A stretch of DNA of 18,159 nucleotides from a virus: the UHGV virus genome UHGV-0178165. One strand, given 5' to 3'. Below, piece by piece: positions 12,001 to 15,000 of the stretch (positions are counted from its first letter, which is position 1; every line of letters starts with the position of its first letter). The position numbers were made by a program.

Positions 12001-15000
12001 TCCAGATCCCGCCGTGGTAGATGCACCAATACCAGCAAATATCCGTTGAGAACCAAGAGCGACACCCTGCCGTTTTGGTTTACCGGCTCCGCGACCTCCA
12101 ACATTTGCATCAACCGTAATAGTCCCCATTGGACTATAAGATCCTTCTATAAGGCTGTTAATATCCAGTGTGTTAAAGATATTGGATACACCTGTCTCAA
12201 CATCAAAAATTTTCGGCCAACCCATGTCCGCGTTTTCGTATAGCAGGGTATTACCAAAACCACTGAACTGATATCGCACTCCAAGTTTGGGTGATTCCGT
12301 GAAGTTTGTGATCTGCGTTTTATCAGCTAGCGTGCGCGGGTCTCCGATAGGGTAAATTCTGATAGTGCGGGATGGGCTGTACGGCAGTAGAATATAGCGC
12401 TGCCCTGCTTTTCTGTAAACGTGGATGCCTTCTGGTGCACCAACGTTATTCGGAAAATGAAGACGTGTTACCAATGCTCCTGTTGCCCAGTCATGCACCG
12501 TAACCCATACCGATGCGGGGTTTAGCGTCTGCCAGCCGATGTATACCATTCCATCATTGCTGTCTATGTAAATCCCCTGAAATCCCATGGTCGTATAACC
12601 ATACTGACCTTTAAGATCTGCGGTAATCTCATTGTCTATGATGCTGAATTCTAATTTCCAGTTCAGCGGCCTACGCGTACCACTGACATGTCTGGAAATA
12701 TGAGACAGGTAGCTTTTAACCCCGCCTGCGATAATGTATCTATCTTTGATCTCAGTAACAATTCCAGTTGCAACTGGAGTGCATTTATAGACGCCGCCGT
12801 TTATTCTAATAAAATTGGTTCCTGTTAGATTATCCCCAATGGCAACGTCTTTGCTACTATTCTTAAACGTCCCATTACCTAAGTCAGTAACAAGCAATGC
12901 CCCTTCTACATATTTCAATGACTGATCAGGGTCATACTTCAGCACATTAGGAAAATAGAACTGCTTAGCACCATATGCATCATAAACAGCCATAGAATGG
13001 CCTTGCACAGTTACGAACTTGGCTATTTGCCCGTTATATACCGGGTAACCAGCAGCGTTAATGATGATTGGTTGCGAAACAGGAACGTGAGAACCGTCTT
13101 CATTCTCAACATAAACCTGAATCCGGTTTTCAGGATTTACCGGGTCAGTGTCAATTTTACCGATATAAATTCTGCCATTGGCATTTGCTTTAAACGAGCG
13201 AGCTAAAGTAAATAAGTTACTTGGTTGTGAAACGACAACGTTGTATGATTGATTTGGCATAATAAACATTCCGGAGAAAATAATGAGTAAGAGACGTCAC
13301 GAGGTAGTAACTCGGGAGCGCCTTATGGAGGTTCTAGATTACAATAAAGAAACAGGAATTTTCACCTGGAAAAAGAAATTAAGCGCCAGAGGCTTGTTGG
13401 CTGTTACTCCAAGATTCTCTGCAACCTCCCTTGCTGAGTAGTAATGCTCTTCTATTGCCGGAAGAGGTATTCTAGCTAATGCGCCCTTCCTTCTTAAGAC
13501 TGGCAATTACTCTCTGATAAATCTCAGAGTTAACAGATCGACCATTCTCTTCCGCCACCTTGCGTACCAAATCCAACACTTCTTTAGGCCACCGCAAATT
13601 GAACTGCGGCATCTTGCTCATTCCTTTCATATTCACCTCACAGCACGGCCCACAGTGGACCTATTGAGAATATAGTAGAGTGATTCTATCATGCCAGCGC
13701 ACTAACTTGGAGTGATGGCATGGCAGAGATTGTTCACACACAAACACCTAAAAAGTCTAATTTGCTCTAATTTTGTGTATTAATGGTTGCATAAACAAAT
13801 AAATTAGGAATATAATTTAAGTGAGGTAATTAATTGGAGAAAAAGATATGAAAGTGCAGACTTTAGAGTTCCCATACGGTGAAGTCGAGTTCACCAGAGA
13901 TGAGTATATCGATGCGTCAACACTAACCGTTCAAATGAACCGATGGAGATTTGATAACGGTCTTCAACCAAGAAATCTTGCTCAGATACTGAAAACGGAT
14001 GACTGCAAAGACTTCATGCGTGTTTGTGAAGAGGAGACTGGTATTATTCCGTTAAAAACAACGAGAGGAAGGAATGGGAAAACGTGGCTAAGTCTCCATC
14101 TGGCGGTGTATGTCGCCGAGCAGTACAGCACTTATTTCCACTTTCTCGTCATTGATCGTTTTATCACCCAGAGACAGGTCGAGTTGCGAAACATTGGTGC
14201 GGCAAGTTTTGTGGAGCTTAACGCAGCAGTTAGTCGGATGCTTGAGCGTACAGAAGGTAGGATTGGTCATAGTGGTCATTTCATTCAGGTTGCAAAGGTG
14301 GTTAAGGAATCGATAGATATCCGTGAAGTTACCGGGTTTGATACCTGGGATTCTCAGGATGCAAAAACCAACCAGTTGCGCAGCGAGATACAGAAGTCTC
14401 TTGTTCAGGCTCTTGATATGGAGTTTGTCAACTCGTGGGATGAGCTGAAAGAGACGATACCGCGAGTTGTGCGTAAATGCGCTGAGAAGATTGCAAGAGC
14501 TTAAAAAATGATGAGGGTTACCAATATGAAAAAGGCACTGTTAATTATCCCGTTTCTGCTGGTTGGATGTGCAAAAGTAAGTGACTATCAGGCAAATTGC
14601 GAACAACGCTATCAAAAGCTTAGCGATATGGCCACTTGCCTTGATGCCAGCGTGAAGAGCGACTCACGCATGGCGTCAGCACCAACACCTAAACTGTATG
14701 TCCTTGCTGCGAAGATGCTCGGGCAAGGTGTCGATGAAGGCAAGATAAGTAACGCGCAGGCAAGACTTGAGCTTCAGAATCTTTATGTTCAATTGCAAGC
14801 CCAAGAACAAGCCCAGCAAATAGCGCAAAGCCAGGCATTTCAGCAGGCTTTATTGAATTATCAGGCTTTAAACACAATGCAAGCGATCGAGCAAAAAGCC
14901 AGACAGCCTGTTATAACTCAACCTTACCCAACGCGTGTTGACACCTATACAAACTGCAATTCAGGGTTTGGAAATACAGTCACATGCAACAGTAGCAGTA

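What the first reader, a model, noticed from the sequence alone, without database searches (positions are those of the whole stretch)
13283..13697. immI locus remodelled: arc and its operator kept, ant and mnt missing, HNH-endonuclease remnant where ant should begin
Arc (near-identical to P22 Arc as recalled) and a 21-bp operator one mismatch from the P22 arc operator are present. In P22, arc is followed by ant and opposed by mnt. Here arc ends about 200 bp from the tailspike start, and that interval holds only a 52-aa N-terminal fragment of an HNH-type endonuclease on the opposite strand. An orphan Arc with an intact operator may have been co-opted to regulate the adjacent cassette or tailspike expression. 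The HNH remnant hints that a homing endonuclease mediated the ant replacement.
Basis: partly seen in the sequence, partly recalled or inferred. Interest (0 to 1): 0.65.

Follow-up and report, generated by a model that had tools for sequence, protein, structure and literature searches.

The report
Decayed P22 immunity-I stump, orphan arc

Summary
The observation largely holds. arc (13472-13630, minus strand) is 90% identical to P22 Arc. The 21-bp arc operator has one mismatch. No intact ant, mnt or sar exists. The tailspike gene starts about 200 bp after arc.

The interval between them is not only an HNH fragment. It is a mosaic: 79 bp from the middle of a KilA-type antirepressor gene, joined to the first 37 codons of an HNH_3 endonuclease gene.

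Near-identical metagenome contigs show the history. One form has the same arc/ant junction plus the ant terminator and an intact HNH gene. Another has the same junction and no HNH gene at all. The window form is a 689-bp deletion between imperfect 8-bp repeats. That deletion removed the rest of ant, the terminator and most of HNH.

So the HNH gene was damaged by the deletion and did not cause the ant loss. mnt was cut at about codon 4-5 and replaced by a Jerseyvirus-like gene.

The lineage also shows no cI repressor or integrase at their usual positions, so immI has probably lost its purpose. Arc probably still represses its own promoter pair, which now faces the tailspike gene and the new cassette. 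Co-option is possible but untested. The 'ant moron' is already known to be hypervariable.

The parts
10573..13260 (-). Tailspike gene. It is 895 aa from the ATG at 13260, as called in relatives; the mechanical ORF runs from 13269 and gives 898 aa. It has a P22-type head-binding domain.
   Evidence: Pfam Head_binding E 2.4e-62 and Phage_tail_C_2 E 1.9e-59. Gene calls in L005-L012. The N-terminus MPNQSY is the form linked to the HNH cassette.
13283..13393 (+). Remnant of an HNH_3 homing-endonuclease gene, codons 1-37 of about 167. It lacks the HNH_3 and AP2 domains. The mechanical ORF continues to 13441 through unrelated sequence.
   Evidence: tblastn gives 37/37 identity to Kapi1_066, E 3e-17. 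blastn: window 12922-13392 is 93% identical to Kapi1. The HNH_3 domain is at residues 60-103 of the full protein. The intact 167-aa gene is present in L005, L007, L009 and L010.
13393..13400 (.). Junction of the 689-bp deletion. The 8-bp overlap is CCAACAAG in arc-sense orientation; the second repeat copy in the undeleted form reads CCAACAGCG.
   Evidence: Both flanks of the undeleted relative L005 (6231-6238 and 6920-) align to this stretch.
13393..13471 (-). Internal fragment of a KilA/JEP4-type antirepressor gene, codons about 163-188 of 241. It has no start codon and is out of frame with arc. It is a pseudogene remnant.
   Evidence: blastn 94.9% to JEP4 gp17, E 1.6e-30. tblastn 92%, E 3e-8. 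Relatives of type B retain this piece as the start of a longer 216-bp remnant reaching the end of that gene.
13472..13630 (-). arc gene, 52 aa. The ORF is intact and the ribosome-binding site is retained.
   Evidence: Pfam Arc E 3.3e-28. 90% identity to P22 Arc. PDB 1ARQ E 1.5e-27. DNA 91-93% identical to P22 and epsilon34 over 13475-13730.
13646..13662 (.). Eroded Mnt operator. In arc-sense it reads AGGTCCACTGTGGGCCG. The left half-site is intact and the right half-site has two changes.
   Evidence: 3 mismatches to the P22 Omnt. Compared with 80 mnt+ loci, where the right half is almost always GTGGACCT or GTGGACCC.
13664..13692 (+). Pmnt promoter (TTGAGA, 17 bp, TATCAT). The hexamers are unchanged from P22. 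It now points at the mnt stump and the Jerseyvirus-like cassette.
   Evidence: Promoter scan, 10/12 match. Alignment to P22 features.
13672..13692 (-). Arc operator Oarc, ATGATAGAATCACTCTACTAT. It has one change (G10T, at 13683), which makes the two positions flanking the centre symmetric.
   Evidence: Single match in the window, with none in 200 shuffles. P22 annotation of Oarc. 76 of 80 other loci carry the canonical sequence.
13669..13697 (-). Pant promoter with a weakened -35 hexamer (CTGGCA instead of TTGACA). The -10 hexamer TATATT is kept.
   Evidence: Promoter scan, 9/12 match. 79 of 80 other P22-type loci have TTGACA and 1 has TTGGCA.
13720..13770 (+). mnt stump. The start codon and about 4 codons of mnt are followed by foreign sequence, giving a 16-codon ORF.
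   Evidence: Alignment to P22 and epsilon34 mnt and to phage Ent1. P22 homology ends at about 13730.
13718..14504 (+). Jerseyvirus-like cassette that replaced mnt. It comprises about 130 bp of native upstream region plus a 218-aa gene (13848-14504; phrog_6095, weak KilA-N hit).
   Evidence: blastn 85% to Ent1 over 13718-14482. The protein is 91-93% identical to Jerseyvirus gp04 homologues. PHROG E 1e-122. Junction microhomology GCATGGC.
14526..15011 (+). Lipoprotein gene, 161 aa (167 aa from the ATG at 14508). It is a usual resident of this region in other P22-like phages.
   Evidence: phrog_6067 E 7e-106. 91-94% identical homologues sit at the same position next to gene 16 in phages Gally, 720R6 and VSe13.

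Best explanation
The region is the stump of a P22-type immunity-I region (the 'ant moron' between injection gene 16 and tailspike gene 9). It belongs to a P22-like podovirus known only from metagenome contigs. At least three independent events made it, and each left a sharp junction.

1. mnt was cut at about codon 4-5, at a 7-bp microhomology, and replaced by a gene cassette of Jerseyvirus type.
2. sar and everything from arc's last two codons to codon 163 of a KilA-type antirepressor gene were lost. This also changed the Arc C-terminus from ...GRIGA to ...GRIS.
3. A 689-bp deletion between imperfect 8-bp direct repeats removed the remaining ant fragment, the terminator t_ant, a vestigial old tailspike start, and codons 38-167 of an HNH_3 endonuclease gene. 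That gene had earlier been inserted at codon 6 of the tailspike gene.

The HNH gene is therefore a casualty of the deletion, not its agent.

What survives is an intact arc ORF, Oarc, an unchanged Pmnt, and a Pant with a weakened -35.

Inferred mechanism: Arc still binds its single operator and represses the overlapping divergent promoters, as in P22. Leftward transcripts (from Pant and from the late operon) now run arc to tailspike with no terminator between them. Rightward Pmnt transcripts run into the new cassette.

The lineage shows no cI, cII or int at their canonical positions, so an antirepressor circuit probably has nothing left to act on. The stump is most likely a largely neutral, decaying remnant whose regulatory effects are incidental.
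For: Anatomy (shown):
- Three-patch mosaic with sharp borders.
- P22 and epsilon34 alignment of arc, the promoters, the operators and the mnt start.

History (shown by comparison):
- Contigs 99.8-100% identical to the window exist in three structural states: B, C and D.
- The window state C is 100% identical in contigs from three other samples (L006, L011, L012).
- The deletion repeats and their positions are defined.
- The canonical terminator GACCCAGCTTCGGCTGGGTT+T-run is present in type B and absent in the window.
- The old SD plus ATG-ACA-AAC-ATT-ACA-GCC vestige lies upstream of HNH in type B and in the HNH+ IMG/VR loci checked (L025, L083, L087); Kapi1 aligns across that stretch.

HNH is independent of the ant loss: L008 has the junction without HNH, and Kapi1 plus 5 of 80 IMG/VR loci have HNH with a full ant.

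Regulatory changes are specific to the orphan lineage.

Lysogeny loss:
- No cI ORF lies between cro and N. An ori-iteron duplicate sits there instead.
- No int lies beside the tailspike gene.
- The junction 22-mers and 23-mers are absent from 185,579 representative genomes.
- The arrangement is absent from 5,426 complete E. coli genomes.

Literature:
- This region is hypervariable, with degraded ant and arc already seen (PMC2629481).
Against: - Arc function is not tested. Five of the ten nucleotide differences from the consensus arc cluster in codons 42-45 (M42I, E43A, F45L), and the C-terminus is altered. The dN/dS ratio against other arcs is 0.10-0.25, versus 0.05 among them. The protein could therefore be impaired.
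- Equally, an intact ORF, an intact ribosome-binding site and an almost intact Oarc/Pmnt core could mean retention for a purpose.
- The absence of cI and int is inferred from the canonical positions only, not from a fully inspected genome.
- The order of events 1 and 2 is unknown.
- Event 2 could be recombination between two different morons rather than a deletion.
Confidence: 0.8

Rival explanations
1. Co-option. The orphan Arc/Oarc pair has been retained by selection as the regulator of a new circuit. It would be an Arc-autoregulated Pant-arc-tailspike operon and/or Arc control of the Jerseyvirus-like cassette through Pmnt.
For: - The arc ORF, its ribosome-binding site, Oarc and the Pmnt hexamers are intact, while their neighbours are destroyed.
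- The Oarc change increases operator symmetry (read directly from the sequence).
- The loss of t_ant puts the tailspike gene directly downstream of Pant.
- A weakened Pant -35 would shift the balance toward Pmnt in the absence of Mnt (P22 promoter competition is recalled from memory).
- PMC2629481 notes that the P22 ant moron and its repressors may influence tailspike levels.
Against: - There is no additional Arc operator in the window within 3 mismatches.
- The cassette carries its own conserved upstream region.
- Forms with and without t_ant coexist at 99.8% identity, so the arc-tailspike fusion is very recent.
- The lineage has a single regulatory haplotype, so conservation cannot be tested.
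- Arc shows raised non-synonymous change.
Confidence: 0.2
2. Homing-endonuclease-mediated replacement. Cleavage by the HNH enzyme, followed by repair, removed or replaced ant.
For: - An HNH_3 gene does reside here, and it looks like a mobile cassette. It is inserted at tailspike codon 6 with a substitute 5' end, and it is present in only 5 of 80 loci.
- A double-strand break near the tailspike start could in principle seed a deletion.
Against: - The arc/ant junction is identical in L008, which has no HNH gene, and in type B, which has an intact HNH gene.
- HNH coexists with full-length ant in Kapi1 and in L025, L045, L071, L083 and L087.
- The 689-bp deletion destroys the HNH gene itself. It ends at short direct repeats far from the cassette borders.
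- mnt was lost at a separate junction on the other side of arc.
Confidence: 0.05
3. Fully dead remnant. arc is no longer functional (unstable protein or silent promoter) and simply has not yet been deleted.
For: - Substitutions cluster in helix B (M42I, E43A, F45L) and the C-terminus is shortened and altered.
- The Pant -35 has lost two consensus bases.
- Its partners are all gone, and other accessory genes in the same genome also carry deletions.
Against: - The ORF is intact, with all beta-strand and N-terminal-arm residues unchanged.
- F45L also occurs in a natural mnt+ ant+ locus.
- arc would still be transcribed as part of the late operon readthrough, as in P22 (PMC12111858).
- The first 125 nt carry only two changes, both synonymous.
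Confidence: 0.25
4. Assembly artefact. The junctions come from a chimeric or collapsed low-coverage metagenome contig.
For: The window is a contig with about 4x coverage (NODE_473, cov 4.18).
Against: The same junctions are present at 100% identity over 4-10.7 kb in contigs from three other samples made with different assemblers (L006, L011, L012).
Confidence: 0.02

Closest known systems
Phage P22 immunity-I region (mnt, Pmnt/Pant, Oarc, Omnt, arc, sar, ant, t_ant), as annotated in BK000583
   Same: - Same position, between gene 16 and gene 9.
- arc is 90% identical at the protein level.
- DNA is 91% identical over arc plus the control region.
- Oarc has one mismatch.
- The Pmnt hexamers and the Pant -10 are identical.
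   Different: - No mnt beyond about 4 codons.
- No sar and no t_ant.
- Of ant, only a 79-bp piece of a different (KilA/JEP4) type remains.
- The Pant -35 is weakened.
- One half-site of Omnt is eroded.
Degraded or partial 'ant morons' of other P22-like phages: ST64T, L, Gally and VSe13 with mnt only; Scho1 with a degraded arc; HK620 with a degraded ant (PMC2629481, PMC8022706)
   Same: - Same hypervariable locus, and the same process of piecemeal loss of immI genes.
- The lipoprotein gene next to gene 16 is shared with Gally and VSe13.
   Different: Here the survivor is an intact arc with its operator. This is the mirror image of the mnt-only type. The 2008 survey I read did not list an arc-only type.
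Escherichia phage vB_EcoP_Kapi1 (MT813197): mnt-like, arc-like, ant, HNH on the opposite strand, tailspike
   Same: It has the same HNH cassette at the same place, and the same tailspike 5' end and intergenic DNA (93% over window 12922-13392). The first 37 HNH residues are identical.
   Different: In Kapi1 the HNH gene and ant are intact, and its arc and mnt are of a different sequence type.
The two-gene antirepressor moron of phage JEP4 and the E. coli E7476 prophage: arc-like, Rha/P22AR_C gene, KilA-like gene, tailspike
   Same: It is the source type of the ant fragment. The match is 92-95% over codons 163 to the end in type B relatives, followed by the terminator and the tailspike start.
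   Different: The window keeps only 26 codons of the second gene and has a P22-type arc rather than the JEP4-type arc.
Free-standing homing endonuclease genes of phages (for example the T4 seg/mob genes); comparison from memory only
   Same: It is an optional, patchily distributed HNH gene placed next to a conserved essential gene, with a short tract of co-varying flanking sequence.
   Different: No cleavage activity or target is known. In the window the gene is truncated before its catalytic domain.

Membership tests
P22-type immI region | Located between the last injection gene (16) and tailspike gene 9, inside the late operon | tested here: met
   The gp16-like gene is at 15101-17494 (minus strand; SLT and Phage_P22_gp16 hits in relatives). 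The tailspike gene is at 10573-13260 (minus strand).
P22-type immI region | arc gene with its 21-bp operator inside overlapping divergent promoters Pant and Pmnt | tested here: met
   Oarc has 1 mismatch. Pmnt matches 10/12. Pant matches 9/12, with -35 CTGGCA.
P22-type immI region | mnt repressor gene and a symmetric Mnt operator | tested here: not met
   Only about 4 mnt codons remain. The tblastn hit of P22 Mnt in the window falls on arc itself, through ribbon-helix-helix similarity. Omnt has 3 mismatches.
P22-type immI region | ant antirepressor gene, sar antisense RNA and the t_ant terminator downstream of arc | tested here: not met
   P22 homology ends within arc's last codons. Only a 79-bp internal ant fragment remains. 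No terminator-like site lies between arc and the tailspike gene, whereas t_ant is present in L005.
Arc/MetJ ribbon-helix-helix repressors (Pfam PF03869) | Sequence match above the curated threshold, with conserved beta-strand DNA-contact residues (Q9, N11, R13) | tested here: met
   97.7 bits against a cut-off of 20.4. PDB 1ARQ E 1.5e-27. Residues 1-41 are identical to the commonest natural Arc.
Arc/MetJ ribbon-helix-helix repressors (Pfam PF03869) | Operator binding and autoregulation | not testable with these tools
   This needs EMSA or reporter assays with the M42I/E43A/F45L/C-terminal variant and Oarc(G10T).
HNH_3 homing endonuclease | HNH_3 catalytic domain (PF13392) | tested here: not met
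   The 52-aa ORF hits no Pfam family. In the full-length Kapi1 protein the domain lies at residues 60-103 and AP2 at 114-156. The window keeps residues 1-37 only. No other HNH piece was found in the window.
HNH_3 homing endonuclease | Homology of the fragment to a bona fide family member | tested here: met
   37/37 identical to Kapi1_066. The intact 167-aa orthologue with HNH_3 is present in type B relatives.
Phage antirepressor (KilA-type, JEP4 gp17-like) | Complete ORF with a start codon | tested here: not met
   The fragment covers codons 163-188 only, begins directly after the arc stop codon in another frame, and has no ATG.
Phage antirepressor (KilA-type, JEP4 gp17-like) | Recognised ANT/KilAC domain | tested here: inconclusive
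   JEP4 gp17 and the 81-aa remnant of type B give no Pfam hit. Related hits in other phages are annotated as antirepressor or KilA.
Homing-endonuclease-mediated gene replacement | The rearrangement co-occurs with the endonuclease gene, and its endpoints lie at the cassette or cleavage site | tested here: not met
   The ant junction is present without HNH in L008. The deletion endpoints are internal to HNH and to the ant remnant.

The most novel reading that the evidence does not exclude
In a P22-like phage that appears to have given up lysogeny, the Arc/Oarc switch has been kept and rewired as a self-limiting early timer. A weakened Pant would now drive arc and, after the loss of t_ant, the tailspike gene directly. 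The intact Pmnt would drive a gene captured from a virulent Jerseyvirus. An immunity circuit would thus have been converted into a lytic-cycle dosage control.
Probability: 0.15. Interest if true: 0.45.

Novelty: new variant of a known kind. Interest (0 to 1): 0.25.

Why it matters
This is a cleanly dated example of stepwise decay of a classic regulatory module. Three co-circulating structural states, 99.8-100% identical elsewhere, let each deletion junction be read to the base. The result corrects a tempting inference, because the endonuclease remnant is collateral damage and not the cause of the ant loss. It adds an arc-only type to the catalogue of 'ant morons'. If Arc proved to be retained for tailspike or cassette control, it would show how an immunity repressor can be re-used in a lytic phage. 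Nothing here challenges current understanding.

Tried and rejected
- Pfam scan of the 52-aa ORF and of the minus-strand 55-aa ORF gave no usable hit. tblastn was what resolved them.
- Megablast of the interval against the phage and E. coli collections matched only the arc patch or, with the type B query, the ant-remnant/terminator/tailspike-start patch; no record spans the arc/ant junction.
- Exact junction patterns gave zero hits in genome contigs (two scans) and in viral contigs. One metagenome scan hit only a contig already known.
- An RNA fold of the arc-tailspike spacer showed no structure beyond shuffles (z = -0.09). I therefore reject a hidden terminator or riboregulator there.
- Rfam found nothing in the interval.
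- PADLOC and NCBIfam found nothing for the two cassette proteins.
- I considered that the arc 3' substitutions were a patch from a JEP4/E7476-type arc. The sequences are too different to support this.
- I considered an intact ant or mnt in another frame. None exists.
- The function of the 218-aa cassette protein does not decide the question.
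Full report
**What is at the coordinates**

- A 52-codon arc gene lies on the minus strand at 13472-13630 (ORF list).
- It scores 97.7 bits against Pfam Arc. It is 47/52 identical to P22 Arc and matches the solved Arc structures 1ARQ/1PAR at E 1.5e-27.
- Window 13475-13730 is 91% identical in DNA to P22 and 93% to epsilon34.
- Using the P22 annotation and the alignment, this block holds arc, its ribosome-binding site, the Mnt operator, the overlapping divergent promoters Pant and Pmnt, the Arc operator, and the start of mnt.
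- The 21-bp Arc operator is at 13672-13692 with one mismatch. It is the only site in the window within three mismatches, and no shuffle produced one.
- The tailspike gene (Head_binding E 2.4e-62) starts at 13260 or 13269, which is 202-211 bp beyond the arc stop codon.

**The spacer is a mosaic, not just an HNH fragment**

blastn against fetched reference loci splits the region into three patches with sharp borders:
- 12922-13392 is 93% identical to phage Kapi1. It covers the tailspike 5' end, the divergent intergenic region, and the first 110 nt of the Kapi1 HNH endonuclease gene.
- 13393-13471 is 94.9% identical to an internal piece of the JEP4 'KilA protein' gene (codons 163-188 of 241), in the same orientation as arc.
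- 13475-13730 is the P22-type block.

Consequences for the 52-codon ORF:
- Its first 37 residues are 100% identical to the Kapi1 HNH protein (E 3e-17).
- Its last 15 codons are only the antisense reading of the antirepressor fragment (tblastn 92%, E 3e-8).
- In the full-length protein the HNH_3 domain is at residues 60-103 and an AP2 domain at 114-156. The remnant is therefore catalytically empty, which explains the absence of a Pfam hit.
- No other HNH piece exists in the window.

**History from near-identical relatives**

A look-up of the exact Arc protein returned 18 contigs. One later look-up showed that the window itself is ENA contig ERZ1034763 NODE_473. The relatives fall into three states:

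| State | Loci | Layout after arc |
|---|---|---|
| B | L005, L007, L009, L010 | 216 bp of the KilA-type gene (codon 163 to its stop, no start codon), canonical terminator t_ant, vestigial ribosome-binding site plus six codons (MTNITA) of an older tailspike start, intact 167-aa HNH_3 gene on the opposite strand, then the present tailspike start (MPNQSY) |
| D | L008 | The same arc/ant junction and t_ant, no HNH gene, tailspike beginning MTNITA |
| C | window, L006, L011, L012 | Equals B minus 689 bp |

- The layouts rest.
- In state C both flanks of the deletion overlap on CCAACAAG (window 13393-13400). The second copy in B reads CCAACAGCG.
- State C contigs from three other samples are 100% identical to the window over 4-10.7 kb. 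State B is 99.8-99.9% identical. The junction is therefore real and the deletion is recent.
- The deletion removed the rest of the ant remnant, t_ant, the old tailspike start and HNH codons 38-167.

**The HNH gene is not the agent**

- The arc/ant junction is the same with an intact HNH gene (B), without any HNH gene (D), and with a truncated one (C).
- In Kapi1 the HNH gene sits between a full-length ant and the tailspike gene.
- Among 80 IMG/VR loci that carry a P22-type arc, all have an intact mnt and a full-length ant (at least as far as the stored DNA reaches). Five carry an HNH gene at this same place (four close homologues plus a 42%-identical one in L083).
- The HNH+ loci checked keep the old tailspike start upstream of the cassette.
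- The cassette therefore looks like an optional mobile insertion at tailspike codon 6 that supplies a substitute 5' end.
- It was later damaged by an ordinary short-repeat deletion whose endpoints are unrelated to the cassette borders.

**The mnt side**

- P22 homology stops at about 13730.
- From 13718 the window is 85% identical to the region upstream of, and including, gp04 of Jerseyvirus Ent1.
- The two homologies overlap on GCATGGC. This leaves the mnt start codon and about four codons, in a 16-codon ORF at 13720-13770.
- The 218-aa product is 91-93% identical to the Jerseyvirus proteins. It belongs to phrog_6095, whose 'amidase' label I could not support, and it gives only a weak KilA-N hit.
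- The next gene is a lipoprotein. Its homologues sit beside gene 16 in the mnt-only morons of phages Gally and VSe13.

**Source of the ant fragment**

- In phage JEP4 and an E. coli E7476 prophage the moron reads: arc-like gene, Rha/P22AR_C gene, KilA-like gene, terminator, tailspike.
- The fragment comes from the second gene of such a two-gene antirepressor module.
- Whether the junction with the P22-type arc arose by deletion or by recombination between two moron types cannot be decided.

**State of the control region**

I compared the window lineage with the 80 mnt+ ant+ loci.

| Element | Other 80 loci | Window lineage |
|---|---|---|
| Pant -35 | TTGACA in 79 of 80 | CTGGCA |
| Pant -10 | TATATT | unchanged |
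| Pmnt hexamers | TTGAGA / TATCAT | unchanged |
| Oarc | canonical in 76 of 80 | unique G10T |
| Omnt right half-site | GTGGACCT (or ...CCC) | GTGGGCCG |

- Read directly from the sequence, G10T makes positions 10 and 12 symmetric about the operator centre.
- The arc coding sequence has only two differences, both synonymous, in its first 125 nt.
- It then has five differences within eight nucleotides (M42I, E43A, F45L), followed by the junction changes (G52S, loss of A53).
- dN/dS against other arcs is 0.10-0.25, versus 0.05 among them.
- F45L also occurs in one normal locus.
- I read this as an arc that is probably still functional but under weaker constraint. This is inference.

**Mechanism**

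- Shown: no terminator-like site lies between arc and the tailspike gene in the window, whereas t_ant is detected in state B by the same scan. The spacer RNA has no unusual structure.
- Inferred from P22 knowledge (PMC12111858, PMC2629481): Arc binds Oarc and represses both promoters. arc is also transcribed by late-operon readthrough.
- In the window, Pant transcripts should therefore now continue into the tailspike gene, and Pmnt transcripts into the cassette.
- The cassette also brought its own conserved upstream region.
- Because there is no second operator, any Arc control of these genes can act only through the native promoter pair.

**Why decay is the better reading**

- The lineage has no cI ORF between cro (3777-3992) and the N-like gene. 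A 220-nt duplicate of the replication-origin iterons sits there instead. The same arrangement is present in a 40.9-kb relative.
- A truncated O-like duplicate occupies the cII position.
- No integrase lies beside the tailspike gene.
- The junction sequences are absent from 185,579 representative bacterial genomes. The arrangement is absent from 5,426 complete E. coli genomes.
- An antirepressor circuit has no target without a prophage repressor.
- The same genome carries further small deletions relative to its relatives. One of them removes the ANT domain of another antirepressor-like gene.

**Comparison with what is known**

- Villafane et al. described this locus as the 'ant moron', with ten types in sixteen genomes. 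These include degraded ant genes, a degraded arc and mnt-only versions. They noted a possible accidental role in tailspike dosage (PMC2629481).
- The present arc-only version is a further variant of this known phenomenon.

**Verdict**

- The HNH-as-cause idea is wrong.
- Co-option is possible but unsupported.
- Overall interest is low to moderate.

Noticed in passing
window 3992-4846 (repeat 4225-4444 = 2692-2911; iterons 4376-4507): There is no cI/c2 repressor gene between the cro-like gene and the N-like gene. Instead there is a 98% identical 220-nt duplicate of the iteron segment of the O-like replication gene, with five 22-nt iterons. The same arrangement is seen in a 40.9-kb relative (L096). 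This suggests a repressor-less, virulent P22-like lineage.
   Followed up: partly
window 3229-3483 (minus strand): An 84-aa truncated duplicate of the O-like replication initiator N-terminus (80% identical in DNA to 3021-3220) sits where cII/c1 would be expected.
   Followed up: partly
window 10510-10573; L005-L008: The early-left operon ends (115-aa ORF at 10163-10510) convergent with the tailspike gene. No int, xis or gtr genes lie between them, in the window or in any of its relatives.
   Followed up: partly
L005 6525-7085; L003 (Kapi1); L025, L045, L071, L083, L087; window 13260-13283: The HNH_3 cassette is inserted at codon 6 of the tailspike gene and supplies a new ribosome-binding site and first six codons (MPNQSY). 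The old site and codons (MTNITA) persist as a vestige upstream in the loci checked. This looks like a homing cassette that repairs the gene it interrupts. It is present in 5 of 80 P22-type loci.
   Followed up: partly
window 13718-14504; L095 (Ent1) 3870-4651: A gene and its upstream region are shared at 85% DNA and 93% protein identity between this P22-like podovirus and virulent Jerseyvirus siphoviruses. In the latter it is a lone opposite-strand gene between the portal and head genes. The 'amidase' annotation is unsupported by Pfam; only a weak KilA-N hit was found.
   Followed up: partly
window 6815 and 5805/5806, compared with L096 1205-1726 and 2735-3191: Relative to a 99.9% identical relative, the window has two more deletions. 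One of about 520 bp removes the ANT (KilAC) domain of a Rha-ANT protein (223 aa reduced to 134 aa) and a 56-aa gene. The other, of about 455 bp, removes a DUF2528 gene. The Rfam cIII thermoregulator hit (5804-5859) starts right at the second junction.
   Followed up: partly
window 6058-6498, 6495-6899, 8166-8831: Three antirepressor-like genes (ORF6N/Bro-type, Rha-type, and a 221-aa protein 60% identical to the N-terminal part of JEP4 KilA) lie in the early-left operon. Ant-like domains therefore persist elsewhere even though the immI ant is gone.
   Followed up: no
L096 6677-9583; window 1 to about 2400 (minus strand): The primase/helicase gene of the relatives encodes 968 aa, with a Toprim_2 hit and a weak LAGLIDADG_3 hit. 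This could indicate an intein or an inserted homing endonuclease domain.
   Followed up: no
L027 and L051, about 1200-1500 nt downstream of the arc start: These two loci have about 270 bp of unidentified sequence between the old tailspike start motif and a tailspike gene with the new-type N-terminus. There is no detectable HNH similarity. This may be another decayed or different insertion at the same site.
   Followed up: no
window 13497-13505 (arc codons 42-45): Five of the ten nucleotide differences between this arc and the consensus of 80 others fall within eight bases (ATGGAAAGCTTT to ATTGCCAGTCTT). Such a cluster is unlikely from independent point mutations. Its origin is unexplained.
   Followed up: partly
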